A DNA stretch of 64,000 nucleotides from Arcobacteraceae bacterium. GTDB lineage: Bacteria; Campylobacterota; Campylobacteria; Campylobacterales; Arcobacteraceae. Below the pieces are notes generated by a model that did no database searches, had not been told where the DNA came from, and saw only the letters and a list, made by a program, of their open reading frames with translations. Location: the NCBI GenBank assembly GCA_021107755.1, contig JAIOSF010000032.1:18094-82093 (forward strand). The letters are read 5' to 3'. Made by a program: the position numbers and the translations under genes. Positions 20,002-60,812 of the stretch are shown piece by piece. Numbering within the stretch: the stretch's first letter is position 1; every line of letters starts with the position of its first letter.

Positions 20002-20389
20002 TAAACCCTTTTAAATCATTTATCGTTATACCAAAAATATCACTATACTTTTGAAGAATTTTATCATTTAATTTTCTAAAATATTTAGCTTTTAAATGTC
20101 TTTTAACTTTAAATTGAAAAAAACCAACAACAGAAGCTAAAGTAGGTATATCCATTCTGTTTTTATACATATAGTATTCTATTGGGGAAGAGATATTATT
20201 TTTTATATTTTCTAAACACTCTTTTTGTAGTATTTTATACTCCTCTACAGCTAGCTTAGTTGCATATTCTTCTATATTACTTCCATAGTTAAATGTTTGA
20301 AACTTTCCATTTTCATTAGGGGCATACATCACTTTTTGATGCCCATCTAGTGTTGAGTTTTCCTCATTTGGAATTTTGATTTGTTTCAT
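19988..20389 (-). CDS. hypothetical protein with possible C-terminal XRE-like HTH
   Basis: 133 aa. MDIPTLASVVGFFQFKVKRHL...YSDIFGITINDL resembles an HTH_XRE layout. Confidence 0.35.
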   Translation of the reverse strand: MKQIKIPNEENSTLDGHQKVMYAPNENGKFQTFNYGSNIEEYATKLAVEEYKILQKECLENIKNNISSPIEYYMYKNRMDIPTLASVVGFFQFKVKRHLKAKYFRKLNDKILQKYSDIFGITINDLKGFSDGK

Positions 20390-21528
20390 ACTACCTCTAA
20401 AGCCATAAATGAAGTTGAGAACCTGCCACTCTCAGGTATATAACAAAGTATTTTTTCACCTTTATTAAGTTTACCACTATTAAAAAGTTCCTCCAACATA
20501 ATATAGATAGATGCACTTCCCGTATTCCCAAATTTTGTTAAGTTAGTAAACCATTTTTCATAAGGTATCTCAAAATTTGCTTTTTTCAGACCTTCATATA
20601 CTTTATCTCTAAAATATGTTGAAGAGTAGTGTGGTAAAAAATAATCAAATTGTTCAGGCTTTAAAGATCGTTTTTTAGCAATTGTAATGATAGGTTTTGT
20701 TACTGTAAATTCAATAATATTTTCATTTAATAGTTTTACATCTTGTTTTATAGCAAGTAGAGATTTTTCCATCACTTCATCCTGAGAATAAGCTCTCCAT
20801 GAAGTTACCTTATTATCTTCTACATTTAATCCACTATACATACATACAGGCATCTCTCCAGCATAAGAGAGTATATCTATAAAATCAATTTTTAAAGAGA
20901 GTCCATTTTTATTTGGCTTATTTTGAAGTTTCATTGCCCCCGCACCATCTGAAAGCATCCATCGTAAAAAATCTTTTTCAAAGGCAATACTTGTATTTTT
21001 TTTAAGTTCATCAATGAGATGTTCAGATTCTTTTTGAAAGTTTTTAGCACTTAAAATAGGAGATGAAGTTTCACTTCCAGTTGCTATTGCACAAGATAAG
21101 TCACCACATTTAATACCATAATAAAGGTATTTTAAAGCATTAATTCCACTTAAGCAAATACCACTAGTACTTATTGTTTCTATCTCACTAATTTTAAGTT
21201 CCCCTTGTACCATAAGTGTGTGATTTGGCATAAGTTGATCAGGTGAAGTTGTACCACAGGAAAGAGATTCAATCTCATCTAAAGAAAAATTCTCATTTTC
21301 TAATTTTTTTATAGCGTTTGCTGTTAGTTGTGCATTTGAAAAGAGTGGTTTTTGAGTCCCTTTTTCAAGCACATAGTATCGTGTTTGTATACCATTACTT
21401 TTTAAAACAATTTTTCTAGCTTTTGATTTTTTGCCACCAATATATCCAAGATACTCTTCCATCTCATCATTACTAACAGGTTCATTTGGCATAAACTTTT
21501 CTATTTGATTGATATAAACATTATTCAT
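20386..21528 (-). CDS. FabH-like beta-ketoacyl synthase III (DarB-like dialkylresorcinol-forming KS)
   Basis: 380 aa. Cys in STSGICLSGINAL, His in LPHYSSTYF, Asn in FGNTGSASIY. Paired with the DarA-like gene. Confidence 0.65.
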   Translation of the reverse strand: MNNVYINQIEKFMPNEPVSNDEMEEYLGYIGGKKSKARKIVLKSNGIQTRYYVLEKGTQKPLFSNAQLTANAIKKLENENFSLDEIESLSCGTTSPDQLMPNHTLMVQGELKISEIETISTSGICLSGINALKYLYYGIKCGDLSCAIATGSETSSPILSAKNFQKESEHLIDELKKNTSIAFEKDFLRWMLSDGAGAMKLQNKPNKNGLSLKIDFIDILSYAGEMPVCMYSGLNVEDNKVTSWRAYSQDEVMEKSLLAIKQDVKLLNENIIEFTVTKPIITIAKKRSLKPEQFDYFLPHYSSTYFRDKVYEGLKKANFEIPYEKWFTNLTKFGNTGSASIYIMLEELFNSGKLNKGEKILCYIPESGRFSTSFMALEVV

Positions 21529-22477: not shown

Positions 22478-22564
22478 TATTTGTCCATTTATTTAGTGCT
22501 TTATTTGAATATATATTATAGTATTTTAATATTTAAATTAAGGTAAGGTACTACTTTATCTAAC

Positions 22565-22728
22565 ACAATCATAGGTTAAGTTTTAGTTAAGATTAACAAA
22601 AAAATTACGCGTGACTTGAAAATGAATATCCAGTGAATTAAGGCAAATTAAGCTCAAAGAATAATAAAAAGAGCTTAATTGCTAAAGCTATTTTCTTTAA
22701 TCTTAACTAAAACTTAACCTGTGATTGT
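22565..22728 (+). repeat. long-hairpin palindromic element, copy 1 (32-bp terminal arms, ~100-nt core)
   Basis: Arms 22565-22596 and 22697-22728 are complementary except for one T:G pair. Conserved boxes are shared with the copy at 47225-47392 (inverted). Inner 10-bp hairpin aattaagctc/gagcttaatt. Confidence 0.7.
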
Positions 22729-22774
22729 ACTATACTTTATCCTTTTTTTTAAAACATTTTTGTACAATAATAAG

Positions 22775-30481: not shown

Positions 30482-30742
30482 TTGAAACTAAAAGATATCA
30501 AAGGAAAAGTTTCTATACTTCGTAGAATTGATAGGATAAGAAAAGGAAACTTTGGAGACCATAAAGGTTTAGGGGATGAAGTATCTGAACTTAGGATAAG
30601 TGTTGGTGCTGGATATAGAGTGTATTACACCATAGAAAATAAAAAAGTTGTATTGCTTTTGGTTGGTGGAGATAAATCTTCTCAAAAAGTAGATATACAA
30701 AAAGCAAAAGAGTTGGCAAAGGAGTTAAAAGATGATAAATGA
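30482..30742 (+). CDS. addiction-module killer protein (RelE/HigB superfamily toxin); true start probably upstream at a non-canonical codon
   Basis: GNFGDHKGLGDEVSELRISVGAGYRVYY...VVLLLVGGDKSSQKVDIQKAKELA matches the remembered family pattern. The frame is open from 30428 and encodes (I)KQTDIFSKWLLKL, which is typical of the family N-terminus. Only ATT/ATA codons (30434, 30437, 30449) are available there. Confidence 0.7.
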   Translation: MKLKDIKGKVSILRRIDRIRKGNFGDHKGLGDEVSELRISVGAGYRVYYTIENKKVVLLLVGGDKSSQKVDIQKAKELAKELKDDK

Positions 30743-31004
30743 TTTTGATATATCACAATATTTAGACTCAAAAGAGATGATAGCAGAGTATCTATCGCAA
30801 GTATTAGAAGATGGCGATATGGATGAGCTTTTAACAGCAATTGGTCATATCGCAAAAGCAAAAGGTATGAGTCAAGTATCAAAAGATACTAGTCTTGGTC
30901 GAGAGAGTTTATATAAAACATTTGCCAAGGGATCTAAACCTAAGTTTGATACTGTATTAAAAGTTCTTAATTCATTTGGTATAAAATTAAAAGCAAGTGC
31001 TTAA
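30732..31004 (+). CDS. addiction-module antidote protein (HigA-family HTH antitoxin)
   Basis: 90 aa. Overlaps the toxin stop by 11 nt. HIAKAKGMSQVSKDTSLGRESLYKTF HTH segment. Confidence 0.7.
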   Translation: MINDFDISQYLDSKEMIAEYLSQVLEDGDMDELLTAIGHIAKAKGMSQVSKDTSLGRESLYKTFAKGSKPKFDTVLKVLNSFGIKLKASA

Positions 31005-44324: not shown

Positions 44325-44696
44325 ATGGCACATGAAGGTTATCACGAAGATCCAAAAGAGTTATCAAGTTTTGCAAAAGATTATCATAGAATGATACAAA
44401 GTACTATGGAAGAGTTAGAAGCTGTTGATTGGTATAATCAAAGAGCTGAATGTGCTACTGATCCTGAAGCAAAAGCAGTTATGGAACATAATAGAGATGA
44501 AGAGATAGAACATGCTTGTATGGGTATTGAGTGGCTTAGGAAAAATTCTCCTGTATGGGATGCAATGTTACGTGAGTTTTTATTTCAAGATGGAAATATT
44601 GTGGGAAAAGAAAATGAGATGACAGGTAAAACTGAAGAGACTGATACACAAACAGTGACTAACAGTAGTCTAAATATTGGAAATAATAAAAAGTAA
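44325..44696 (+). CDS. encapsulated ferritin-like protein (EncFtn cargo)
   Basis: 123 aa. Di-iron EExxH-type motifs (MEELEAVDWY, RDEEIEHA). C-terminal SSLNIGNNKK resembles the encapsulin targeting peptide. Directly upstream of the shell gene. Confidence 0.75.
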   Translation: MAHEGYHEDPKELSSFAKDYHRMIQSTMEELEAVDWYNQRAECATDPEAKAVMEHNRDEEIEHACMGIEWLRKNSPVWDAMLREFLFQDGNIVGKENEMTGKTEETDTQTVTNSSLNIGNNKK

Positions 44697-44711
44697 AAAA
44701 GGAGAAATATA

Positions 44712-45515
44712 ATGGAAATTTTAAACAGAGCAAATGCCCCTTTTGGAGCTAGTGTTTGGAGTACAATAGATTTAACTTTAGGTGAATTTTTAACAAAAAG
44801 ATTGAACTTGAGAAGTGTTGTTGATTTTGATGGTGGATATAGTTATGAAACAGATAGTATACCTACAAAATATTCTACAGAAGTATCAAATAAAAATGGT
44901 GTATTAATTTCTACAAGAGAACCTATAAAAATGGTAGAGATTAAAAAAAGTTTTAAACTATCTAAATCTGTAATTGAAAATATAAAAAAAGGTATTGAAG
45001 ATTTTGATGATAAAGAGTTAGCAACTGCTGCAAATGAATTTTCATCTGTTGAAAACAATATGATATTAAGTGGATTGAAAGAGGCAAATATAGGAGGTAT
45101 CACAACAAATAAAGATATTAAAACAATAGAAGTTAAATCAACAAAAGATATTTTAGGTGCTGTTGCAAAATCATTAGGAACATTTAACCAAGAATTTGTG
45201 GATGGTACTTTTAAGTTAGTAATATCGAGTGCAACTATGGCAAAACTTTATACAGAATTTTTTGATGGAATTAGTGTCAAGACAAAACTAGATGATATTT
45301 TAGGTGCTGGAAATATTGTGATAAATCAAGATATTGGAGATAGTAAAGCTTTAATAATATCTCAAAGAGGTGGAGATTTTGAATTTTATAGTGGACTTGA
45401 CGTTTCAATTGGTTTTGAAAAAGATACTAAAGATACCGTAGAATTATTTCTTATTCAAAGTTGTGCTTTTAGAGTATTATCTCCAGAAGCAGCTATTGTT
45501 TTAGATATAAAATAA
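44712..45515 (+). CDS. family 1 encapsulin shell protein (linocin M18-like, HK97 fold)
   Basis: 267 aa. N-terminus MEILNRANAPFGASVWSTID is typical of encapsulins. Size and operon context fit. Confidence 0.75.
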   Translation: MEILNRANAPFGASVWSTIDLTLGEFLTKRLNLRSVVDFDGGYSYETDSIPTKYSTEVSNKNGVLISTREPIKMVEIKKSFKLSKSVIENIKKGIEDFDDKELATAANEFSSVENNMILSGLKEANIGGITTNKDIKTIEVKSTKDILGAVAKSLGTFNQEFVDGTFKLVISSATMAKLYTEFFDGISVKTKLDDILGAGNIVINQDIGDSKALIISQRGGDFEFYSGLDVSIGFEKDTKDTVELFLIQSCAFRVLSPEAAIVLDIK

Positions 45516-46185: not shown

Positions 46186-47130
46186 TTGATGGATAATTTT
46201 TCACAAGAACATACAGAACTATTACAATGGTATAAAAATAACGGACGCCATGATCTTCTATGGCGCAATACAAAAGAGATTTATCACATTTATCTAAGTG
46301 AGATAATGTTACAACAAACTCAAGTAAATAGAGTAATGAGTGAATATTACCCTAAATTTGTAGAGAAATTTCCAACACTAGAAAAACTCTCAACGGCATC
46401 CTTAGATGAAGTTTTATCTTATTGGAGTGGACTTGGATATTATTCAAGGGCAAGAAATCTTCATAAAACAGCCCAAAAGTGTCCAGATAGATTACCTGAA
46501 GATATAAATGAACTACAGAAACTACCAGGAATAGGGAGATATACCGCAAGTGCAATTTGTAGTTTTGGATATCATCAAGAGGTATCTGTAGTAGATACAA
46601 ATATTGCTCGTGTATTAAAACGATATTTTGCTACTTTAGATGTTTCAGATATAGAAGTTTGGGAAAGTGCGAATAAATTTTTGAATACGAAAGAACCAAC
46701 AAAACACAATCTTGCCCTTATGGATTTAGGTTCAATAGTTTGTACTCCTACAAATCCTTTATGTGAAAATTGTCCTTTATCTATAAGTTGTTTAGGGAAA
46801 AAAAATCCAGAACTGTACACACAAAAAAAGAAAAAAGAGTATGAGTCTTTAGAGTTATTTTACGGTATCTATGGAAGAGAAGATAAGATAGCTCTTGTTA
46901 AAACAACAGGAAAAATGTATAAAGGGATGTTAGAGTTACCTACTGTTGATCCTATAGAGGAGAATTTTATTGGACAGTTTAAACATAGTTATACAAAATA
47001 CCGATTAAGTGTAAAGCTTTATAAAATAGATAATTTAAGTGATGAAGTTATTTGGATTGATTTAGATAAAATTGATTCAACACCTATTTCATCATTGACA
47101 AAAAAGGCGTTGAAAAATTTTTTATTGTAG
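46186..47130 (+). CDS. mutY: A/G-specific adenine DNA glycosylase
   Basis: HhH-GPD LPGIGRYTA, catalytic VDTN, 4Fe-4S CTPTNPLCENCPLSISC, NUDIX-like C-terminus. Confidence 0.9.
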   Translation: MMDNFSQEHTELLQWYKNNGRHDLLWRNTKEIYHIYLSEIMLQQTQVNRVMSEYYPKFVEKFPTLEKLSTASLDEVLSYWSGLGYYSRARNLHKTAQKCPDRLPEDINELQKLPGIGRYTASAICSFGYHQEVSVVDTNIARVLKRYFATLDVSDIEVWESANKFLNTKEPTKHNLALMDLGSIVCTPTNPLCENCPLSISCLGKKNPELYTQKKKKEYESLELFYGIYGREDKIALVKTTGKMYKGMLELPTVDPIEENFIGQFKHSYTKYRLSVKLYKIDNLSDEVIWIDLDKIDSTPISSLTKKALKNFLL

Positions 47131-47131
47131 A

Positions 47132-47158
47132 GAGAGTTGAAAAGGAAACAACTCTTTT
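47132..47158 (+). terminator. terminator hairpin after mutY
   Basis: agagttg(47132-47138)/caactct(47148-47154) followed by TTTT. Confidence 0.5.
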
Positions 47159-47224
47159 GTATATGTCTTGTTAAATTTCGTACCTAATTGTAATAAACGA
47201 AAATGAAATGAAAATGAAATAGAC

Positions 47225-47392
47225 AACACAATCCAGTATTCAGTTTTAATTAAGATTAAAGAAAATAGCTTTAGTAGTTAACTACCTTTTATCTACTTCA
47301 AGTATAAATCTCTTAACTTATTGGATAAATCTCTTAAAATCACGCGTAATTTTTTTATTAATCTTAATCAAAACTGAATACTGGATTGTGTT
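47225..47392 (-). repeat. long-hairpin palindromic element, copy 2 (inverted relative to copy 1)
   Basis: Arms 47225-47259 and 47358-47392. Shares taacacaatc, gtttt..ttaagattaa.aaaaaaattacgcgtga and ctaaagctattttctttaatcttaa boxes with copy 1. Core carries a 13-nt direct repeat ataaatctcttaa at 47304 and 47325. Confidence 0.7.
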
Positions 47393-47401
47393 AAGAGGAT
47401 T

Positions 47402-48205
47402 TTAAAACTTAAAATCTTTTAAATTTCCTATCTCTGGTATTTTACCAACTTTTTCTCTAATAAGCATTGTTAGTCTATTGTTTGTATATGCAACATCAAA
47501 AAGCTCTAATGCTTTTATTAAGTCACCCAATTTATTAAAACCATGGTTAATTGGAGAAAATGAAGAGTTTTGTTTGATATATAATCCAATATTTTTTACA
47601 TCACTCCAATCATTGTCATCAGTAGTTTGATGTACTGCATTAAGGATAAATTTTTTGAGTTTTGTATCTCTTTTAATGTCATAGTTTTTTCCTATATATC
47701 CACTAGCTGAACTATAATCTTCAGTTACTAAAGTGTCATTCTCTTCTAATTTTGCAGGTGTAACTTTTGATGATAACTTTTCAACATAGATAAATTGAGA
47801 ACAGGCATTTGTAAAAGCCATTGGAGTTTTTTCTTCCCCATATCCATATACAGTTAACCCATTTGCTAATATTCTTGTAACTATTGGAGTAAAATCACTA
47901 TCACTTGTAACAAGTGCTACACCGCTTAACTCTTTTGTATACAATAGATCCATAATATCTATAATCATAGCTATATCTGTAGCATTTTTCCCTTGTGTGT
48001 AGGCAAATTGTTGAATTGGTTGGATATTATGTTGTTGTAACAGTTTCTCCCAACCTATGAGTTTTTTATCTTTCCAGTTCCCATAGGCCCGTCTTATATT
48101 TACTGTTCCATATTTTGCAATATCATTAAAAATATCTTCTGCATACTTATGACTTACATTATCACAATCTATAAGAATCGAAATGTTTTGTTGCTCATTT
48201 TTCAT
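47402..48205 (-). CDS. NYN (LabA-like) ribonuclease domain protein with C-terminal OST-HTH/LOTUS domain
   Basis: ISILIDCDNVSHKY...IRRAYGNW...LVTSDSDFTP (NYN/PIN-like acidic residues). C-terminal ~70 aa resembles LOTUS. Confidence 0.7.
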   Translation of the reverse strand: MKNEQQNISILIDCDNVSHKYAEDIFNDIAKYGTVNIRRAYGNWKDKKLIGWEKLLQQHNIQPIQQFAYTQGKNATDIAMIIDIMDLLYTKELSGVALVTSDSDFTPIVTRILANGLTVYGYGEEKTPMAFTNACSQFIYVEKLSSKVTPAKLEENDTLVTEDYSSASGYIGKNYDIKRDTKLKKFILNAVHQTTDDNDWSDVKNIGLYIKQNSSFSPINHGFNKLGDLIKALELFDVAYTNNRLTMLIREKVGKIPEIGNLKDFKF

Positions 48206-52495: not shown

Positions 52496-52513
52496 GATAT
52501 CCCTTGATCTACT

Positions 52514-53275
52514 TCAATTAAACTTTTTACTTTCATCATATAGTTTTATAACTATCTGGTGAACATTATGTAATACAATATTTAACTCTTTTACAACTTT
52601 TATCATTTCAACTTTCTCAACTTCATAATTACAATTCAATTCAAAAGCAATTCTATTAACATCATTTGTAATATTTGCTACATCATTATTTAACTTCATA
52701 AGCTCTCTAGCATATTTTATTTGATTATCTGATAGTATGTAGTACCTTTTATCTAAAAAGTATTTTAAAGCTGCTCTAATGAGTTTTGATTTATCCAATT
52801 TTAGATTTTTATAGATATCTATATTTCTCTTAACATCCAATAATATTGTTTGATCTACTCGAGCAATAATTGTATGATTTTTTATTTTGTTCTTTTCAAA
52901 AGGTCTTAAGAGTTTAATTAATCTTTTCAGTTCCTGGACATATTCTATATTTGACTTTTTACAATAGGAAAAATTATCTATTATAATATCTATATTTTCA
53001 TCTGCTGCAACTTCTAAATGTTCTGTTATTTGAGATATATTTGCAGTAAGTCCATTCATATCTAAAATCATTTCATTAGATACTTTTATGATCGTATCTA
53101 TATTTGAAATATAGTTAAATAAGTTTTGATCAACAAAATTATTAATAGCTGCTCTTAACAGTTTGCTTTCATCATAGTGTGAAAATTTCTTTAGCTGCAA
53201 CTTTTTAGATATTTGACTTTTCAAATCATCATCAAGTCTTGCTGTGATACGAGGATTGATAGACATTAATCTCAC
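52514..53275 (-). CDS. tandem-duplicated RHH + MobC-like relaxosome accessory protein
   Basis: 253 aa made of two homologous halves. Half 1: ITARLDDDLKSQI...SKLLRAAINNFV...MNGLTANISQITEHL. Half 2: IIARVDQTILLDV...SKLIRAALKYFL...LNNDVANITNDVNRIAFELN. The latter segments resemble the MobC G-x-NLNQIA-x-x-N motif. Confidence 0.5.
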   Translation of the reverse strand: MRLMSINPRITARLDDDLKSQISKKLQLKKFSHYDESKLLRAAINNFVDQNLFNYISNIDTIIKVSNEMILDMNGLTANISQITEHLEVAADENIDIIIDNFSYCKKSNIEYVQELKRLIKLLRPFEKNKIKNHTIIARVDQTILLDVKRNIDIYKNLKLDKSKLIRAALKYFLDKRYYILSDNQIKYARELMKLNNDVANITNDVNRIAFELNCNYEVEKVEMIKVVKELNIVLHNVHQIVIKLYDESKKFN

Positions 53276-53425
53276 TTTTCAATTAGTTTACTAGAAACTA
53301 ATTGTATCTAAAAAAGCAAAAATTATCTAGTCGGTTGGGGGGATTTGTCATACAAATTCCCTATCCTGCCAGTCTAAAAAATAAAATTTTTTAGACTTAA
53401 AACAGAAATTTACTTAATTTTTGTG

Positions 53426-53535
53426 TTAATTTTCCTTTTTTATTCTTAATTATTGGTTTTTTGTTGTTAATTCTTTGCTTTTAGGTGTTAATTATTGGTT
53501 TTGCAGTGTTAATTTTTAGTATAGGGGTGTTAATT
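53426..53535 (+). repeat. iteron-like array: six (T/G)GTTAATT boxes, five at exact 21-bp spacing
   Basis: TTAATT cores at 53426, 53446, 53467, 53488, 53509 and 53530. Confidence 0.75.
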
Positions 53536-53637
53536 CGTAAAAAAGTGCTTTGATTTATCGAATATTTGTATTTTAATAATTTAATTGAAAATTTAATATC
53601 ATAAAGAAAACTTTTAATACTTAGTGGAGAAGCAAAT

Positions 53638-54033
53638 ATGAATATAGAAGAAAAATTAAATATAATCCAAAAGATCATTCATAGAAATAAAAATTCATTA
53701 TGTAGTAGTGATGAATTAATGGAAAAATATGGCTTACATTTTGCTATATATCATGCTTATATTTTAGATAAATATGAAAAGAATATGAAAACTAATATTT
53801 TAAATAAAGAGTTTTATATTAAAATAGATGAGTGTAAAAGTAAAACAACTTTATCATATCATCATCAAAAAAAAGCAATGAAATTGGGAGAAAGTTTAAA
53901 ATGGTGGAGCTGTGAGTTAAAATATAATAAATCAATAAAAGCTAAAGTAGTACATTTTATTTTAGATGATAAAATAGCTATTGAAATGCTTACTAAGTTA
54001 AATCAATTTAAAAATACTTTTAAATCTATTTGA
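53638..54033 (+). CDS. hypothetical protein
   Basis: 131 aa, basic, no motif recognised. Confidence 0.4.
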   Translation: MNIEEKLNIIQKIIHRNKNSLCSSDELMEKYGLHFAIYHAYILDKYEKNMKTNILNKEFYIKIDECKSKTTLSYHHQKKAMKLGESLKWWSCELKYNKSIKAKVVHFILDDKIAIEMLTKLNQFKNTFKSI

Positions 54034-54102
54034 ATAGATCTTAATTACTTTTGATCTATTTCATGTAATGTATTATAAATATAATATCTAGTTATTAATT
54101 AT

Positions 54103-54705
54103 TTAATTATCTTCATCAATTTCATATAAAGTATTATAGACTTTGAATCTTGATAAAATATATAAAAGAATAGGAATGTCATTGATAGAAAAATCAAAGC
54201 CTACTTCTTTATTAAAATCATCAATTATAATTTGATTCATTTGATTATATTCTAAATTCTTCTCTTTATTCATATCCTCTAAAATTTCTAGAAAATATTT
54301 TAAAAAAATAAAATTTGTTTTTAGATTCTCTAATTTAGAAATAATTCGAGTATCAATACCTATACTATTTTTATCATATTGTTTTGTTATATTTAATAAT
54401 AAGATATTTGCAATGTCAGCAGGAGATGAAAGCTGCATAAATTTTATTATTTCGTGAACTCTTTGATCTCTATCATAATTTCCTATATTAGATAATTTTG
54501 CTTCAAGTTCTTCAACTGAAAGTTCTTTAATAAGTTCAAATTTTTTAATTTTATTTGATTCTAAAAACTCTTCAATTTCATTTTTGGCTATGTAGCCTTT
54601 TTCAAAAAAAGATATAACTGCTCTATCTTCTTTAGCCCAGTTAGAATAACTTCTTGCAGTAATTCCGAACAAATCACATAATATTTTTTTAAATCCACTT
54701 TCCAT
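54103..54705 (-). CDS. hypothetical protein with N-terminal HTH (candidate element repressor)
   Basis: ILCDLFGITARSYSNWAKEDR resembles an HTH. Diverges from the rep operon across the operator-like boxes. Confidence 0.4.
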   Translation of the reverse strand: MESGFKKILCDLFGITARSYSNWAKEDRAVISFFEKGYIAKNEIEEFLESNKIKKFELIKELSVEELEAKLSNIGNYDRDQRVHEIIKFMQLSSPADIANILLLNITKQYDKNSIGIDTRIISKLENLKTNFIFLKYFLEILEDMNKEKNLEYNQMNQIIIDDFNKEVGFDFSINDIPILLYILSRFKVYNTLYEIDEDN

Positions 54706-54720
54706 AGTTGCACCATATTT

Positions 54721-54837
54721 AGAAATATTTTCATATAAAAGAAAATATTTCTAATAAATTAAGTTTATTTTAAATATAAATTATTTATACTTCACAAATA
54801 GAAAATATTTCATTTTATATGAAAATATTTCTATAAT
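54721..54837. promoter_or_regulatory. four GAAAATATTTC(T) boxes on a 20-bp register plus a TATAAT -10 box
   Basis: Boxes at 54721 (inverted), 54741, 54801 and 54821. TATAAT at 54832-54837 abuts the last box. Confidence 0.55.
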
Positions 54838-54938
54838 GTATGTATTTTGTCTTTATATATTAATTTTAATTAATAGAATACCTTAAAAATGGTTAAACAT
54901 ATACATTTATACATAATTTTACAATTATTAAACATTTG

Positions 54939-55036
54939 GAGCTGACCAAACAGCTACTCGAAACTTTATAAGTTTTGAAGCTAATCACTTGATTAGCTCC
55001 AAGTGTTTTAAGGTAGCTGTTTGGTCGCTCTACCTT
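54939..55036 (+). other. nested palindrome / three-way-junction structure upstream of the Rep-like gene
   Basis: Outer stem 54939-54957 / 55013-55030 (14 perfect bp gaccaaacagctac/gtagctgtttggtc). Inner hairpins 54958-54978 and 54979-54998. Alternative hairpin aaggtag/ctacctt at 55010-55036. Confidence 0.6.
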
Positions 55037-55116
55037 AAATTGCTATATTAATGATAAGGTGGAACTATTCTATGAATAAATTCTGTATTTTTTTAATGCT
55101 TAGTGAAAAAAATTAA

Positions 55117-55815
55117 ATGAAATATATATTACATATAAATCAAGAACAAGCAATTAAACTTGGCATGAAAAACATAAACCAGGCTATTATATTTGATTTA
55201 TTGACTAGTGCCTCAACTTGGGCAGAACCAATAATATATGAAAATAAAGTTTACTATTGGGTTGCAAGACAAGTTGTAGTGAAAGAACTTCCTTTATTAA
55301 ATCTCAAAGAAGACACCGTATATAGACATTTTAAATTTTTAGATGAAATAGATCTAATCAACTACATAAAAGTGTCTAAAAAGGATTGTATCAATATTAC
55401 AAAAAAAGGAAAAAAATATGCTTTTAGCACTATGTCGGAAACAAATCCGAATTACTATGTCGGAAATAAATCCGAACTCGGAAATGAATCCGAAAAAAAC
55501 TCGGATTTAAATCCGACATATCAATATACTATTCCTTATCCCAAAGAAGAAGAAAAAGAAGAAGATTTAAAATATATAAAAAATATTTTAAGTGATGACA
55601 CAAGATATGAAGTTTTTTCAATTGAGTTTTATGACTTCATCTATCCAAAAAACAAAAAATCTAATCAACAAAAAATTTGGTATGGCAATAAAATCAAAAA
55701 AAATATTTTAGAAAAAGAAAAACAAACAATAGAAAATATTAGTAAATTTGTAGAGTTCCACGATCAATTAAATTTCAAATTAAAAAATCATAAAGGGAGG
55801 GAAAATGAAATATAA
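55117..55815 (+). CDS. putative replication initiator / replisome-organizer-like protein (N-terminal wHTH)
   Basis: 232 aa. N-terminal ~100 aa are wHTH-like (EDTVYRHFKFLDEIDLINYIK). The middle is encoded by dyad repeats, followed by an acidic EEEKEEDL stretch. Confidence 0.4.
   Translation: MKYILHINQEQAIKLGMKNINQAIIFDLLTSASTWAEPIIYENKVYYWVARQVVVKELPLLNLKEDTVYRHFKFLDEIDLINYIKVSKKDCINITKKGKKYAFSTMSETNPNYYVGNKSELGNESEKNSDLNPTYQYTIPYPKEEEKEEDLKYIKNILSDDTRYEVFSIEFYDFIYPKNKKSNQQKIWYGNKIKKNILEKEKQTIENISKFVEFHDQLNFKLKNHKGRENEI
55435..55516 (+). repeat. four TCGGA-N6-TCCGA dyad-symmetric repeats inside the Rep-like CDS
   Basis: Repeats at 55435-55450, 55460-55475, 55478-55493 and 55501-55516. Units 1 and 2 share actatgtcggaaa; unit 4 carries the same extension inverted (tccgacata). 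Confidence 0.75.
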
Positions 55816-56821
55816 AATAAATTCAAGAGATAGTTTTGAGTCTTCATTGTTCTTTTGGATACAAAGGTTTATATATAATCAAACACAAAAATCCAATAGC
55901 AGATATATTAAAGATTTATTTCAATATAAAATCAAAGTTATGACACTTTCAATTGATGATGTTTTTGAAGATATGAAGGAATTTGTACAGTTAACTAAGG
56001 AGATAAGAAATTTAGGTAATAAAAGCTTAAGTACATATTTTTATCCATTGTTAAATTTTTATAATTACAGTATAGGTTTAGGTTTACAAAAATTAACAGA
56101 TATCAATGAAGATATGTTAATGAAATATGTAAGTCAATTGAATTTTAAATCAGCAGTAACTCGAGAAAACTATAAAAGAATGATAATCATATTCTTTAAT
56201 TATTTAGATTTGAATAACGAAGATATGAATGGAGACCAATTTATTTTTGATATTAAACTTGATACTCTTCAAAGAACAAAGCATACAAATAAATTACCAT
56301 CATATTTAACAGAACAAGAATTAGAAAAGTTTTTAATAGCAAATGAAAATATTAAGTATCAAAAACAATCAGCTCCAATGAATCGTTTAATTATAAAACT
56401 TCTAGTATTTACAGGTATAAGAGTTGATGAACTAATAAACATTAAAAAAGATGATATTTATTTGGAAAATAATCAATATTATATAAAAGTTTTAGGTAAA
56501 GGGAATAAAGAGCGAGTAGTTACTGTAGATAATTACAAAATAGATAAAGATTATTTAAGATGTTTACGAATAAATAGATCTAATAATGAGTTTTTATTTA
56601 TAACTACACAAAAAGGAAAAGTATCTGCTCAATATGTGTACAATTTAGTTAAAAACTTATTAGAGTATTCTAATATTGTTAAAGACAAAAGCGGTGCTCA
56701 CATGCTAAGACATACATTTGCAACACATCTATATCGTAAAACTAAAGATATATTACTTGTTCAAAAAGCGTTGGGACATGAAGATCTTAAAACTACTCAA
56801 ATTTATACACATTTATCATGA
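55805..56821 (+). CDS. tyrosine recombinase (XerD-like)
   Basis: R...HMLRHTFATHL...LGHEDLKTTQIYTH catalytic motifs. Confidence 0.85.
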   Translation: MKYKINSRDSFESSLFFWIQRFIYNQTQKSNSRYIKDLFQYKIKVMTLSIDDVFEDMKEFVQLTKEIRNLGNKSLSTYFYPLLNFYNYSIGLGLQKLTDINEDMLMKYVSQLNFKSAVTRENYKRMIIIFFNYLDLNNEDMNGDQFIFDIKLDTLQRTKHTNKLPSYLTEQELEKFLIANENIKYQKQSAPMNRLIIKLLVFTGIRVDELINIKKDDIYLENNQYYIKVLGKGNKERVVTVDNYKIDKDYLRCLRINRSNNEFLFITTQKGKVSAQYVYNLVKNLLEYSNIVKDKSGAHMLRHTFATHLYRKTKDILLVQKALGHEDLKTTQIYTHLS

Positions 56822-57432
56822 AAACAATTAATGAACTTTTATTATTAAAAATTGATAATTCTGTAGATATCAATAGTCTAGTAGACAAAGTAATTGATGA
56901 TAAGGATTTGAAAGAAAGAATTATAGAAAGAACATTGGTAGAGCAATATGTGACAAATTTCTATAATAATTTAAATAAAGAAAAATTATATAGTGAGAAA
57001 TTAATTGTTGAAATAAATGAACAAATAAAAACAGCAATTTTAATAGGTAAAAATGATGATAAAATTTATAAAATTTTAGCTAAATCTAAAGATAAAATAG
57101 AAGCTATATTAACAGTAATAAATAAGTTGTCTAGTCTTAGTGAGCATGAAATGATTATTATGGATCATATTAAGAGTATAAGATTTAATTTATCAAAAAA
57201 AGATATTGAATTAGAAGAAGAAATCAAAAAAGAAATGTCTACATGGACTAATTCAAAATTAAATCTTAGTTTTGAAGATAAGAAAAAATTGATTGAAGAT
57301 GCAATAGATATTTTGAAAAAACATGATGAAAAAATAACATATATTGCTATTGCAAAAATCACGGGTAAACACCAAAGAACAATTAAAAATTATATGAAGT
57401 TATTAAAAAAGAAGGAGCTTTTAAATGATTAA
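56818..57432 (+). CDS. hypothetical protein with C-terminal HTH
   Basis: ITYIAIAKITGKHQRTIKNYMKLLKKKELL. Confidence 0.4.
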   Translation: MKTINELLLLKIDNSVDINSLVDKVIDDKDLKERIIERTLVEQYVTNFYNNLNKEKLYSEKLIVEINEQIKTAILIGKNDDKIYKILAKSKDKIEAILTVINKLSSLSEHEMIIMDHIKSIRFNLSKKDIELEEEIKKEMSTWTNSKLNLSFEDKKKLIEDAIDILKKHDEKITYIAIAKITGKHQRTIKNYMKLLKKKELLND

Positions 57433-58438
57433 AAAATTCATGATAGTAACTATTGCTTATCTTAATATATATGCAATGACCGCCGTAACAGATATTACAA
57501 GTTATCAATATTTGATAAGTGGTATCAAACAATATACACAGATGATCAATGGTATTACACAACAAATACAATCACTTGGTGGTATTCGTAGTTCTGTAGA
57601 AGATTTAAAAGATGCCCTTAATTCTTCTAAATCTGAACTTACTGGCTCTTTAGCTTCATTAGAAAAAGCGAGAAACAATTTAAAAAACACAGTTGACAAT
57701 ACAGAAATAAAAAGTTTATTTGACATGAACGCAGCACGAAAAAGTGCAAGTGGTACTGGTATAGCTTATGATGATATAGCAAAGGTATTTTCTGATAGCT
57801 TTAAAAAAGCCGATGATGGACTAGTGAATTTATTAGGTGGCAAAGAAAAAGCAAAAGAATTTTTGTCAACACAATATAAAATCAATCAAGGACTTGACAC
57901 AACTAATGTCGATGATTTTATGACTATTATGAATAATAAAGAGTTAGTAGATCCAATTAAGATCAAAGAAAATATTTTAATCAAAGATTATATAGATGAG
58001 ACTCATAAAATGGATAGAGATGCTAAACAATCAGTTGCAGCTGAATTGATAAGTGAAGAGTGGAAAGCTACTTTTTTCCCATCATCAGAAGAAGAGATCG
58101 AGGCAATCGAAAAAAGAACAGAAAGATTAAAAGAGCTTAGCGAATTTATAGAGAACTCAAAAGATGTTAAACAATCAATAAAAACAACAAATATGATTTT
58201 AATGGAGATGTTACAGTTGTTACAAAAAGATTTTAATTCGGCTTTACACTATAGAAATGCTATGGCTTCATTATTTTTAAAAAATGGTGAAGGTTCAAAG
58301 TTAGCACTAGAGCTTGAAAAGAGATATGAGGAAATAGATAATACATCAAAAGGACTACCCAAGTCACTGAAAAAAAGTAAATTATCAATAATGGAAGGTA
58401 GTAATCCATATGGAATAGGTTGGAGGCCATTGAAATGA
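57425..58438 (+). CDS. secreted coiled-coil protein, TrbJ/VirB5-like
   Basis: Signal peptide. VTDITSYQYLISGIKQYTQMINGITQQIQSL resembles a TrbJ/VirB5 N-terminus. Followed by a polytopic membrane protein. Confidence 0.4.
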   Translation: MIKKFMIVTIAYLNIYAMTAVTDITSYQYLISGIKQYTQMINGITQQIQSLGGIRSSVEDLKDALNSSKSELTGSLASLEKARNNLKNTVDNTEIKSLFDMNAARKSASGTGIAYDDIAKVFSDSFKKADDGLVNLLGGKEKAKEFLSTQYKINQGLDTTNVDDFMTIMNNKELVDPIKIKENILIKDYIDETHKMDRDAKQSVAAELISEEWKATFFPSSEEEIEAIEKRTERLKELSEFIENSKDVKQSIKTTNMILMEMLQLLQKDFNSALHYRNAMASLFLKNGEGSKLALELEKRYEEIDNTSKGLPKSLKKSKLSIMEGSNPYGIGWRPLK

Positions 58439-59322
58439 ACAAAAGTACTATAGAACTAGTAGCAGACTTATATGACACTGCACTAAGTAATATATTTAAA
58501 CATATTTATACAGTAAGTGCAAATACAATAGAGGGTTTTTTACCTGCATTTATTTCATTGTATTTTATTGTTATGGGCTATAAGTGGATGATAGGAGATA
58601 TGGCAAAAGGTAAGAAAAACTTTTTTAGAGTATTTATATTTTTACCTATATTGATATCTTTTATATTTAACTATAAATTTTACTTGGAATATATAGTTAC
58701 ACCAATATTTATGTTAAAAGATTATGTTGTTGCAGCTATAAATGAAATAACTACTAATGCAAATGATGTAAATACATTTAAAAAGCTTGATACAACTTAC
58801 ATAAACTTATTTTCTTATGTAAAGAATGAGCTAATGGGTAATATTATAACAAGTACACTTGATTTTTTCCTTGGAGTAATAGTTCTTATTATATATGGAG
58901 CACTATATATTTGGACAGGGTTTTATATGATTGCTTCTCTTGTTTTAACTTCTTTATTTTTAATGATAGGACCATTTCCAGCAATTTTATTTGCATTTGA
59001 TTCTACTCAACATATAACTATGGCATGGATTAGAACAATTGCAACATATTTTTTATTTGCTGTTTTTGCTGCTTTTTTTATGATATTTAATTATTGGATT
59101 TCTCAATCTGTGGTCTCTGAAATTGAAACAAATATGGAGTATTTATTTTTATTAATAGTATCAGGATCTATACAAATTATATTTGTAAAATCTATACCTG
59201 AATATGTGAATGCTATCACAGGTGCAATGTCAAGCGGAGGCGATGCTATGAGTGGTGTTTCACAAGCCTTTAAGTGGGGTAATTTAACGGGTAGAAGCGT
59301 AAGTAGCGTAATGAGAAAATAA
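58420..59322 (+). CDS. polytopic membrane protein, TrbL/VirB6-like
   Basis: 300 aa, about 6 TM helices. Overlaps the upstream gene. Confidence 0.4.
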   Translation: MEAIEMNKSTIELVADLYDTALSNIFKHIYTVSANTIEGFLPAFISLYFIVMGYKWMIGDMAKGKKNFFRVFIFLPILISFIFNYKFYLEYIVTPIFMLKDYVVAAINEITTNANDVNTFKKLDTTYINLFSYVKNELMGNIITSTLDFFLGVIVLIIYGALYIWTGFYMIASLVLTSLFLMIGPFPAILFAFDSTQHITMAWIRTIATYFLFAVFAAFFMIFNYWISQSVVSEIETNMEYLFLLIVSGSIQIIFVKSIPEYVNAITGAMSSGGDAMSGVSQAFKWGNLTGRSVSSVMRK

Positions 59323-59332
59323 GGAGAAATAA

Positions 59333-59671
59333 ATGACACTAGAAGATACATTAAAATTAATATTAGACAAGTTAGCAGATCAACAAGAGTTGCTGCAACT
59401 TTCTATCTCGACTTTAACTACTAAAAAAGAGGTAGCTAGGTTTTTAAATAAAAGTGAAAAAACAATAGACAACTATGTGAAAAATAATACTTTAAAAAAA
59501 GATATACATTATTTTTACAATGAAAAAGATAGAGTTGAGTTTATCCCTTTTGCTATATTGGAGTTTAAAAAAGCTCCTAAAATAGTTATTGTAAAAGATA
59601 ACATTGATGAAACTAAAAAGATGTATCATAGTTCAGTAAATAGTATAACTCAAGGTTTAAAAGTTGGCTGA
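59333..59671 (+). CDS. excisionase/AlpA-like HTH protein
   Basis: LTTKKEVARFLNKSEKTIDNYVKNNTL. Lies immediately upstream of and overlapping the integrase. Confidence 0.5.
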   Translation: MTLEDTLKLILDKLADQQELLQLSISTLTTKKEVARFLNKSEKTIDNYVKNNTLKKDIHYFYNEKDRVEFIPFAILEFKKAPKIVIVKDNIDETKKMYHSSVNSITQGLKVG

Positions 59672-60812
59672 TAATATCAAATATAACTATATGGACTTTA
59701 AGTTTACTATCTTTGTTAAAAATGGTAAATGGTGGTTAGATTTTTACTATCAAAAAAAGAGATCTAAACGAAGTACAAAATTAGCCAATACAAAAGAAAA
59801 TTTAGTAATAGTCAAAAAAGAGATCATTCCCTCTGTTGTTGAATATTTAACTGGAGATATCCAACTTATTCAAGAACAGAAAGAATACACACTCAAGAGT
59901 TTTGCAGAAGAATATTTTACAATTCATAAAAAAGATGTAAGAGAGCATACATACAAAAGAAATGTAAATCATTTTAATAAACATATTTTACCATATTTTG
60001 GGCATAGGCTATTAGCAAGTCTTTTACCTATGGAACTTGAGAAGTGGCAATATAAATTATTAGAAAACTATAGGATCTTAACAGTACAAAAATTTAGATC
60101 TATTTTATACTCAATTTTTGATATGGCAGTATTAAATGATATATTAGATAAAAACCCATTATCAAAAGTTAAAGCTCCTAAAGTACAAAAAGAGTTTTTA
60201 TTGGATAGTAGTAATGATGAAGTGCAACCATTTACAACTGATGAAATAAAGTTATTGTTAGAACATACAACAGGTTATATGCATAACTTTATATTGTTTA
60301 TGTATTCATCTGGAATAAGACCAGGGGAAATTATTGCATTAAATTGGAAAGATATAGATTTTGATAAAAAACAAATAGCAGTGTATAAAACAATTGTAAA
60401 TAATAAGATAGGTAATCCTAAAACTCAATCAAGTGTTAGAAATGTGGATATGCTGCCAATGGCACAAAAAGCACTAGAAAGTCAATATAAGCTTACTAAA
60501 GAGTATGAATATGTTTTTGTAAACTCTTCAAATAAATACTTTTATTCTCATGATATTATAAATTTGAATTTTAAAAGATTATTGAAGTTAAATAATATTG
60601 AACAAAGAACATTGTATAATTTGCGACATACATTCGCATCACAACTTATAAGTAATGGTGCTGATATAGTTTGGGTAAGTAAGATGTTAGGGCATAAAGA
60701 TGTTTCTATCACTTTAAAAGTTTATACCAAATTTATAAAAGAAAATGAAGATACTAGATTTAAGAAAATTGAACAAATGGGGACTATTTTGGGGACTGTT
60801 TCAGGTTTTTAA
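59664..60812 (+). CDS. tyrosine-type site-specific integrase
   Basis: 382 aa. GIRPGEIIAL, LRHTFASQLISNGADI, LGHKDVSITLKVYTKF. Its end lies 34 nt from attR. Confidence 0.9.
   Translation: MADNIKYNYMDFKFTIFVKNGKWWLDFYYQKKRSKRSTKLANTKENLVIVKKEIIPSVVEYLTGDIQLIQEQKEYTLKSFAEEYFTIHKKDVREHTYKRNVNHFNKHILPYFGHRLLASLLPMELEKWQYKLLENYRILTVQKFRSILYSIFDMAVLNDILDKNPLSKVKAPKVQKEFLLDSSNDEVQPFTTDEIKLLLEHTTGYMHNFILFMYSSGIRPGEIIALNWKDIDFDKKQIAVYKTIVNNKIGNPKTQSSVRNVDMLPMAQKALESQYKLTKEYEYVFVNSSNKYFYSHDIINLNFKRLLKLNNIEQRTLYNLRHTFASQLISNGADIVWVSKMLGHKDVSITLKVYTKFIKENEDTRFKKIEQMGTILGTVSGF

What the first reader, a model, noticed from the sequence alone, without database searches (positions are those of the whole stretch)
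22565..22728. ~165-nt long-hairpin element with compensatory stem changes between its two copies (candidate structured RNA or novel MITE/REP-like element)
Two copies exist, here and inverted at 47225-47392. They share outer boxes (taacacaatc ... gattgt), inner boxes (gtttt..ttaagattaa.aaaaaaattacgcgtga and ctaaagctattttctttaatcttaa) and a ~70-nt divergent core. Within the 32-35-bp terminal stem, a 9-nt block differs completely between copies: ataggttaa versus cagtattca. The opposite arm changes in step (ttaacctgt versus tgaatactg), so pairing is preserved. Each copy has a single non-Watson-Crick position, and in both it is a G:T pair on the same element strand (plus for copy 1, minus for copy 2). 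That fits a G-U wobble in a transcript of that strand. Genomic contexts differ: copy 1 lies between divergent genes 88 bp from the start of the pigment cluster, and copy 2 lies in the 3' region of the NYN gene. This argues against a gene-specific riboswitch. I do not recognise the element as any known RNA family.
Basis: seen in the sequence. Interest (0 to 1): 0.65.

Follow-up and report, generated by a model that had tools for sequence, protein, structure and literature searches.

The report
Mobile hairpin repeat (MITE) in Arcobacteraceae
The two long hairpins are copies of an undescribed small "jumping" DNA element (a MITE) of marine Arcobacteraceae; its two arms change in step most likely because DNA copying keeps them identical, not because it is a folded RNA, although two short invariant boxes inside it look functional.

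Summary
Both copies (22561-22732 +, 47224-47393 -) are 170-172 nt, with 36-nt inverted arms around a 98-100-nt core.

It is a dispersed repeat family. I recovered 27 distinct copies at about 22 loci in Arcobacteraceae/Campylobacterota MAGs and marine metagenomes, at roughly 10-25 copies per genome.

It is mobile. Five loci, including copy 1, have perfect 9-bp target-site duplications at identical boundaries. Related strains carry empty sites for both window copies. So it is a MITE, with no Rfam match and no mention in the literature searched.

The arm covariation is genuine: 23 of 36 pairs show double changes. However, 98% of pairs are Watson-Crick, and the changes include transversions and matched indels. 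They arise in place at orthologous loci, and one locus has the core inverted. This fits replication template switching between repeat arms (DNA level).

The core shows no covariation, and orientation relative to genes is random. The RNA reading is therefore unsupported but not excluded, since no RNA data exist.

One result was unexpected. Two core boxes plus the inner 10 nt of the arms are almost invariant between orthologous copies (1 difference against about 18 expected), which implies a retained function. No partner transposase was found.

The parts
22552..22560 (.). left copy of the 9-bp target-site duplication TACTTTATC (copy 1)
   Evidence: Identical 9-mer directly flanks both ends. A related strain in run X10 has one copy and no element.
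22561..22596 (+). copy 1, left arm (36 nt; outer 26 nt variable between copies, inner TTAAGATTAA invariant)
22597..22614 (+). copy 1, left core box CAAAAAAATTACGCGTGA (contains the near-palindrome TTACGCGTGA)
   Evidence: Nearly invariant in 27 copies and between orthologous copies.
22615..22681 (+). copy 1, variable centre of the core
   Evidence: Diverges at about the neutral rate and has no conserved structure.
22682..22696 (+). copy 1, right core box CTAAAGCTATTTTCT
   Evidence: Almost invariant in 27 copies: the inner AAAGCTATTTTCT is invariant and the first two bases vary in five copies. No differences between orthologous copies.
22697..22732 (+). copy 1, right arm (TTAATCTTAA plus 26 nt)
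22733..22741 (.). right copy of the 9-bp target-site duplication TACTTTATC (copy 1)
47358..47393 (-). copy 2, left arm (in element orientation)
47340..47357 (-). copy 2, left core box
47275..47339 (-). copy 2, variable centre
47260..47274 (-). copy 2, right core box
47224..47259 (-). copy 2, right arm; its target duplication has decayed (only TCT shared)
   Evidence: The element is absent in a diverged strain: an X10 contig skips 47221-47399.

Best explanation
Both loci are copies of a non-autonomous transposable element (a MITE) of Arcobacteraceae. It is 170-172 bp long, with 36-bp terminal inverted repeats around a 98-100-bp non-coding core. It inserts into AT-rich intergenic DNA through a 9-bp staggered cut, so a transposase supplied in trans is inferred; that transposase was not found.

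The 'compensatory' changes in the arms are produced at the DNA level. One arm is repeatedly copied onto the other by replication template switching or arm-to-arm gene conversion in the long palindrome. This same process occasionally inverts the core. Any mutation, indel included, is therefore either erased or fixed in both arms at once.

Shown here: family membership, mobility, the 9-bp duplication, in-place concerted change of the arms, one core inversion, and strong conservation of two core boxes plus the inner 10 bp of each arm in resident copies.

Inferred: the template-switch mechanism, the DDE-type transposase, and the reading that the invariant boxes are a sequence-specific protein-binding module (for the transposase or a host factor) kept by selection.
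For: Family: 10 copies in three Arcobacteraceae/Campylobacterota MAGs and 22 of 28 metagenome hits give 27 distinct sequences. The boxes have 7-26 times the depth of the flanks in four metagenomes.

Mobility: perfect 9/9 duplications at the same boundaries (26 nt outside TTAAGATTAA on both sides) occur at copy 1, L018/L024, L019, L033 and L034. An X10 contig joins 22550 to 22732, leaving flank plus one TACTTTATC. Copy 2 is also absent in a diverged strain. All copies are intergenic.

Arms: 95.6% of cells are paired, 23 of 36 pairs show changes on both sides, 153 cells changed on both sides, and 0 of 500 shuffles reach this. In columns 8-39 there are 846 Watson-Crick cells, 7 G:T, 1 A:C and 9 other mismatches. 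AU<->UA and CG<->AU swaps are common.

In-place change: orthologous loci show 7 compensated double changes against 4 single changes. L016 and L025 have diverged outer arms (21 of 52 aligned columns differ, with length differences), yet each remains a perfect hairpin.

Inversion: L023 and L031 have identical flanks but the 98-nt core is inverted.

Literature: template switching between inverted-repeat arms is known to homogenise arms, invert spacers and mimic compensatory substitution (PMC8604942; PMC8794818).

Against an RNA gene: no Rfam hit, no consensus structure or covariation in the core, and orientation among co-directional genes is 7 same against 6 opposite.
Against: No autonomous partner or transposase was found in the window or in about 300 kb of related loci.

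The element tips are the least conserved part across subfamilies, while the boxes next to the core are invariant. This is the reverse of what sequence-specific end recognition predicts.

A purely selfish element should decay in place. Yet between orthologous copies the boxes show 1 difference where about 18 are expected from fourfold-degenerate sites, after correcting for the search patterns (P = 3e-7).

G:T outnumbers A:C 7 to 1 on the box-bearing strand (p = 0.07), which would suit an RNA or a strand-specific hairpin.

The inversion rests on one metagenome contig. All copies were found with exact-match patterns that required parts of the boxes.
Confidence: 0.7

Rival explanations
1. It is a mobile structured non-coding RNA gene family. 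The element is transcribed from the box-bearing strand. The long stem is kept by selection on RNA pairing (for example as an RNase III substrate or a protective stem), and the invariant boxes are the functional single-stranded or internal-loop part.
For: Very stable hairpin. Massive covariation in the stem. Invariant boxes conserved in place. G:T exceeds A:C 7 to 1 on one strand. Precedent: bcr1 of the Bacillus cereus group is a transcribed mobile repeat with compensatory changes (PMC3184786).
Against: The stem is 98% Watson-Crick with only 0.8% G:U. Non-wobble mismatches (9) are as common as G:T (7). Many double changes are transversions or matched indels with no wobble path. The core has no consensus structure or covariation. 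Orientation relative to genes is random. There is no Rfam family, no RNA run, and no promoter or terminator signal above background inside the element.
Confidence: 0.15
2. It is a programmed invertible switch (inverton). A site-specific recombinase flips the core between the inverted arms to change which box faces the neighbouring gene. The two arms must match in the crossover region, which would explain the matched changes.
For: One orthologous locus has the core in both orientations in closely related strains. The arms are identical within a copy but differ between copies. The invariant TTAAGATTAA could be a recombinase site. The window holds two tyrosine recombinases, in an unrelated island.
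Against: 12 of 13 other orthologous comparisons keep the same orientation. Copies sit equally in convergent, divergent and co-directional gaps, including between two gene ends, where a promoter switch makes no sense. No recombinase is linked to the copies. The 9-bp duplications and empty sites show the whole unit, arms included, is what moves.
Confidence: 0.06
3. It is a REPIN-like element moved as a single-stranded hairpin by an HUH/Y1 (RAYT or IS200/IS605-type) transposase, or more generally by an enzyme that recognises the hairpin plus boxes rather than the tips.
For: The architecture resembles REPINs: a hairpin with conserved blocks and common compensatory changes (PMC3116915). The tips vary while the distance from box to end is fixed at 26 nt wherever the duplication is intact.
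Against: Y1/HUH elements make no target-site duplication, and here there are five perfect 9-bp duplications. No RAYT or Y1 gene was seen in the window proteins scanned with Pfam (30 of about 66 ORFs).
Confidence: 0.05

Closest known systems
Chunjie MITE of Geobacter uraniireducens (as summarised in PMC3184786)
   Same: Small (178-235 bp), A+T-rich and non-coding, with terminal inverted repeats and 9-bp direct repeats. It folds into a very stable hairpin.
   Different: Its repeats are 21 bp rather than 36 bp and its host phylum differs. I did not compare sequences. No report of arms changing in step or of invariant core boxes.
bcr1 repeat of the Bacillus cereus group (PMC3184786)
   Same: A mobile intergenic repeat of about 155 bp with presence/absence between strains and base-pair compensatory changes that keep a double-stranded structure.
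   Different: bcr1 has 5-bp duplications and is shown to be transcribed. Here the duplication is 9 bp and transcription is untested.
REPINs / REP doublets with RAYT transposases (PMC3116915)
   Same: Hairpin-forming dispersed repeats with highly conserved blocks, a variable spacer and frequent compensatory changes. They persist for long periods.
   Different: REPINs have no target-site duplication and are tied to a RAYT gene. This element has 9-bp duplications and no RAYT was seen.
Correia/NEMIS elements of Neisseria and ERIC elements of enterobacteria (my own knowledge, not tested here)
   Same: Intergenic MITEs of 100-170 bp whose inverted repeats form RNA hairpins when co-transcribed. Some carry host-factor sites and have been co-opted by the host.
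   Different: Correia duplicates TA. Their terminal repeats are conserved between copies rather than varying in step.
Template-switch homogenisation and spacer inversion at inverted repeats (PMC8604942, PMC8794818)
   Same: This process explains one-step 'compensatory' changes, perfect arms and inversion of the spacer, all three of which are seen here.
   Different: It is mostly described for short repeats with spacers of 70 nt or less. Here the arms are 36 bp and the spacer about 98 nt, inside a mobile element.

Membership tests
MITE (non-autonomous transposon with terminal inverted repeats) | Short, non-coding | tested here: met
   170-172 bp. By inspection of the copies printed, reading frames are broken by stops at different places and no open frame is shared between copies. 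All copies are intergenic.
MITE (non-autonomous transposon with terminal inverted repeats) | Terminal inverted repeats | tested here: met
   36-bp arms, 95.6% paired over 27 copies.
MITE (non-autonomous transposon with terminal inverted repeats) | Target-site duplication of fixed length | tested here: met
   Perfect 9/9 duplications at identical boundaries at five independent loci. Older copies score 6-8 of 9.
MITE (non-autonomous transposon with terminal inverted repeats) | Many dispersed copies and presence/absence between strains | tested here: met
   About 22 loci. Depth is 7-26 times the flanks. Empty sites exist for both window copies in run X10.
MITE (non-autonomous transposon with terminal inverted repeats) | A cognate autonomous insertion sequence with matching ends | tested here: inconclusive
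   None found in the window or about 300 kb of loci.
Structured non-coding RNA family | Conserved secondary structure supported by covariation beyond a DNA inverted repeat | tested here: not met
   Only the terminal repeats covary, and almost purely as Watson-Crick pairs. The core has no consensus structure, and candidate inner helices match the shuffles.
Structured non-coding RNA family | Strand-specific transcript | not testable with these tools
   No RNA run holds either locus.
Structured non-coding RNA family | Match to a curated family | tested here: not met
   Rfam 15 gives nothing at gathering score in the window or three loci. Only chance-level hits appear at E up to 10.
REPIN / REP | No target-site duplication; linked RAYT (Y1) gene | tested here: not met
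   9-bp duplications are present. No Y1/HUH domain was found among the 30 window proteins scanned with Pfam; the other ORFs were not scanned.
Integron attC site | R''/L''-L'/R' boxes at the base of the stem, in cassette arrays next to intI | tested here: not met
   The conserved boxes lie at the loop side, not the base. Copies are solitary and carry duplications.
Inverton (invertible promoter) | Both orientations present, dedicated invertase, promoter inside | tested here: inconclusive
   One inversion between strains. There is no linked recombinase and no promoter signal above background. Logan contigs (word length 31, shorter than the 36-nt arms) cannot give orientation.

The most novel reading that the evidence does not exclude
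The element is more than a selfish MITE. It may be a mobile module that the host retains, with two invariant core boxes (one holding the near-palindrome TTACGCGTGA) and the adjacent TTAAGATTAA forming a functional recognition site under purifying selection in resident copies. It may also be moved by an enzyme that reads the hairpin plus boxes and cuts at a fixed 26-nt distance rather than reading the tips. That would be a structure-guided transposition or regulatory system not yet described in Campylobacterota.
Probability: 0.15. Interest if true: 0.75.

Novelty: new member of a known kind. Interest (0 to 1): 0.42.

Why it matters
The result matters in three ways.

First, it gives a name and exact limits to an unannotated repeat of marine Arcobacteraceae. 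This repeat breaks short-read assemblies: contigs end or become chimeric in it. A 2024 review of prokaryotic MITEs never mentions Campylobacter, Arcobacter or Helicobacter.

Second, it is a clear natural example of stem 'covariation' that should not be read as evidence for an RNA. The arms of a mobile palindrome change in step, in place, including transversions and indels, and the spacer inverts.

Third, the in-place conservation of the core boxes, about 18-fold below the neutral expectation, is not explained by selfish transposition. It points to a testable function such as a protein-binding site or a regulatory module.

Tried and rejected
- Rfam at gathering score on the window and three loci, and at E up to 10 on copy 1: nothing real.
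- RNA sequencing runs for both loci: none served.
- blastn of two copies, one against plasmids and one against phages: no match. Scans of viral contigs for the boxes gave one chance hit, L040, which is not an element.
- nhmmer with a family profile over all loci and the window: no extra, decayed or solo-arm copies.
- Search for an insertion sequence: long-range inverted repeats at 600-3500 bp found nothing. Pfam on 30 window proteins found no transposase, only two tyrosine recombinases in an island.
- Candidate inner helices (GAAGATAnAnAGC with GCTATTTTC; TTAAG with CTTAA): no covariation.
- Promoter and terminator scans: no terminator, and promoter-like hits lie mostly in the flanks.
- Idea that only the core moves and lands in pre-existing palindromes: rejected, because the empty site lacks the arms too.
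- Link between the variable arm block and the target: rejected, because identical arms (L019, L033, L034) have unrelated duplications.
- Logan contigs as evidence for core orientation or for a 'hypervariable' centre: rejected. Their word length of 31 is shorter than the 36-nt arms and than the 34-nt stretch shared between copies, so such contigs can be arbitrary or chimeric.

Full report
**1. The observation**

They align at 82% over the element and flanks, with long identical blocks. The two asymmetric boxes are exact repeats found nowhere else in the window; chance expectation is 0.46 and 0.00. Each copy folds into one long hairpin. As RNA the values are -58.9 and -59.7 kcal/mol (z = -10.8 and -9.5); as DNA copy 1 gives z = -10.3. 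They are two of only three long, closely spaced inverted repeats in the 64 kb.

The 9-nt block and its mirror change are real, but 6 of the 9 positions differ, not all nine. Copy 1 lies between a gene of the polyketide-like cluster (start 22477, minus strand, no Pfam hit) and a DUF915 alpha/beta-hydrolase gene (ATG 22775). Copy 2 lies between the ends of mutY (46186-47130) and an NYN-LOTUS gene (47402-48205), 9 nt after the latter's stop codon.

**2. A repeat family**

An exact two-box pattern found 10 real copies in two Arcobacteraceae MAGs and one Campylobacterota MAG, plus one chance hit, L008. A different pattern, which required neither ACGCGTGA nor AAAGCTA, found 28 metagenome stretches. 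Twenty-two of these were real elements from marine sediment, sand, microbial mat, vent and open-ocean samples.

After removing duplicates there are 27 distinct sequences at about 22 loci. In four metagenomes that hold the window's organism, the conserved boxes have 7 to 26 times the depth of the flanks, so there are roughly 10-25 copies per genome. The window has 28.7% G+C.

**3. It is mobile**

The boundaries are set 26 nt outside the invariant TTAAGATTAA on each side. With those boundaries, five independent loci have perfect 9/9 direct repeats:
- copy 1: TACTTTATC
- L018/L024: GTTTATTTG
- L019: ATGTAACAA
- L033: TTAAAAGTT
- L034: TTATTTACA

Older copies score 6-8 of 9. In run X10 a 6.1-kb contig of a related strain joins 22550 directly to 22732. 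It lacks the 172-nt element and one copy of the 9-mer, which is exactly the unoccupied target. A diverged strain in the same run also lacks copy 2: it skips 47221-47399 and has 7 other letters in their place. All copies are intergenic, and many lie 1-16 nt after a stop codon.

The unit that moves includes the arms. This is the signature of a non-autonomous transposon that inserts through a 9-bp staggered cut.

**4. Anatomy (alignment A4)**

- Ends: YARCNCAAT...ATTGNGYTR.
- Arms: 36 nt each. The outer 26 nt vary between copies and the inner TTAAGATTAA / TTAATCTTAA is invariant.
- Left box: YAAAAAAATTACGCGTGA.
- Centre: about 67 nt, variable.
- Right box: CTAAAGCTATTTTCT.
- Core length is always 118-120 nt counted from TTAAGATTAA to TTAATCTTAA.

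By eye, the right half of the core looks like a degenerate mirror of the left half, with the left box sitting in an insertion of about 22 nt. The whole element therefore looks like a decayed long palindrome (my reading of the sequences; not tested).

**5. Why the arms change in step**

The covariation is very strong:
- 95.6% of cells are paired.
- 23 of 36 pairs have changes on both sides.
- 153 cells changed on both sides, against 46 in shuffles (0 of 500 shuffles reach the observed value).
- Sliding the partner column by one drops pairing to 44-47%.

But the pattern is that of DNA, not of an RNA helix. In columns 8-39 there are 846 Watson-Crick cells, 7 G:T, 1 A:C and 9 other mismatches. AU<->UA and CG<->AU exchanges, which have no wobble intermediate, are common.

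The changes also happen in place. At loci shared between genomes I count 7 compensated double changes against 4 single ones: L004/L014/L023, L005/L012, L009/L021 and W2/L030. The distinctive cores stay orthologous. Ectopic replacement from another copy is therefore unlikely.

L016 and L025 are orthologous: their flanks are about 92% identical and they share a distinctive core. Their outer arms have diverged strongly (21 of 52 aligned columns differ, and I estimate about 68% identity by hand alignment with three length differences), yet each is still a perfect hairpin.

L023 and L031 have 100% identical flanks on both sides and cores that differ at one position, but the 98-nt core is inverted between the arms. 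Twelve of 13 other orthologous comparisons, including independent SPAdes assemblies of copy 2, agree in orientation. Assemblers are therefore not orienting cores at random, and the inversion is probably real.

Homogenisation of inverted-repeat arms together with spacer inversion is the documented outcome of polymerase template switching (PMC8604942). The same process has been shown to mimic compensatory substitution in hairpins (PMC8794818). I therefore attribute the 'compensation' to arm-to-arm copying. This mechanism is inferred, not demonstrated.

**6. Tests of the RNA reading**

- No Rfam family matches.
- RNAalifold finds no consensus structure in the core.
- My best candidate inner helices are indistinguishable from shuffles. 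The invariant right box faces variable, uncompensated positions on the left.
- Orientation is random. Among co-directional gene pairs there are 7 copies in the same sense and 6 in the opposite sense, plus 3 convergent and 3 divergent gaps.
- No RNA run holds either locus, so transcription could not be tested.

The one hint in favour is 7 G:T against 1 A:C on the box-bearing strand (p = 0.07). Non-wobble mismatches are at least as frequent.

**7. The invariant boxes are kept in place**

In five orthologous pairs, the boxes plus the inner 10 nt of the arms differ at 2 of 259 sites. The centre differs at 35 of 335 sites and the outer arms at 38 of 260 (Fisher p = 1.7e-7).

Fourfold-degenerate sites of the flanking genes differ by 34% (L004/L014), 18% (L016/L025) and 12% (L009/L021). 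Summed over those three pairs, the arms (22%) and centre (15%) evolve at about the neutral rate (25%).

My search patterns forced parts of the boxes, so I counted only columns free in at least one lineage, and halved the expectation where one lineage was forced. The expected number of differences is 17.9 and the observed number is 1 (Poisson P = 3e-7). One forced block was offset by one column in that script, which has a negligible effect.

The target duplications of the same old copies have decayed to 6-7 of 9 matches. This serves as an internal neutral control (my manual comparison at the model boundaries of the sequences). Gene conversion between copies is an unlikely cause, because the identical tracts (25-28 nt) are too short to flank a mismatch on both sides (my own knowledge of minimal homology lengths).

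A purely selfish element should not show this pattern. I infer a sequence-specific function retained in resident copies, most simply a protein-binding module. The boxes occur nowhere outside the elements in the window or loci.

**8. What is missing**

No transposase or matching longer element was found in the window or the loci. A 9-bp duplication is typical of several DDE families, including the IS4 group, the IS903 group of IS5, IS1, IS256 and ISAs1 (my own knowledge). I cannot choose among them.

The tips vary between subfamilies, while the box-to-end distance is fixed wherever the duplication is intact. This is odd for tip recognition and keeps open a structure-plus-box recognition mode.

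**9. Comparison and verdict**

The closest described things are:
- Chunjie of Geobacter, an A+T-rich MITE with 9-bp duplications.
- bcr1 of the Bacillus cereus group, a mobile repeat with compensatory changes.
- REPINs, hairpins with conserved blocks and compensatory changes but no duplication.

A 2024 review of prokaryotic MITEs does not mention Campylobacter, Arcobacter or Helicobacter, and a search for Arcobacter MITEs found nothing relevant.

The finding is a real, undescribed member of a known kind. The RNA alternative is unsupported but not excluded.

**Caveats**
- All copies came from exact-pattern scans.
- The inversion rests on one contig.
- Logan contigs inside the repeat are unreliable, because their word length of 31 is shorter than the arms.
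- There are no expression data.

Noticed in passing
window 47140-47221: The 82 nt between the mutY stop and copy 2 include a terminator-like hairpin (AGAGTTG...CAACTCT followed by TTTTG) and catttt/cattt repeats. A near-copy exists elsewhere in the same genomes. There it is joined to only the last 13 nt of an element end (CTGGATTGAACTA) and then unrelated DNA. This could be a truncated element or a second small repeat.
   Followed up: partly
window 54720-54833: This is the third long inverted repeat in the window: 48-nt arms, 79% complementary, 18 nt apart. It lies in the gap between ORFs 54103-54705 (-) and 55117-55815 (+) of the island and is unrelated to the element.
   Followed up: no
window 52500-60812: A likely integrated element. 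It has two tyrosine recombinases (55805-56821, 59664-60812), a TrbL/VirB6-like protein (58420-59322), a weak T4SS hit, small HTH proteins and several ORFs with no Pfam family.
   Followed up: partly
window 44325-45515: An encapsulated-ferritin (EncFtn-like) gene is followed by an encapsulin shell gene (Linocin_M18). DJ-1/PfpI and mutY lie downstream.
   Followed up: no
Only one of its ORFs was scanned with Pfam: 20386-21528 is a KAS III-like ketosynthase. Judging by N-terminal sequence alone it also encodes other ketosynthase-like, ABC-transporter, reductase and lipoprotein ORFs. It looks like an aryl-polyene-type locus. Copy 1 sits 83 nt upstream of its first gene.
   Followed up: no
window 30732-31004: A 90-aa HI1420-type 'addiction module antidote' protein (E = 2e-43). 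No partner toxin was examined.
   Followed up: no
L010 6144-6315: A copy whose right arm has lost about 9 nt (taaaactgaaca), so the hairpin is broken. It is the only clearly damaged copy seen.
   Followed up: no
L004 / L014 / L023 / L031 locus: This is an old insertion retained across genomes that differ at 34% of fourfold sites. The whole element (arms 10%, centre 12%) and the 55-nt gap to the downstream 96-aa gene are far more conserved than that. This copy may have been co-opted locally.
   Followed up: partly
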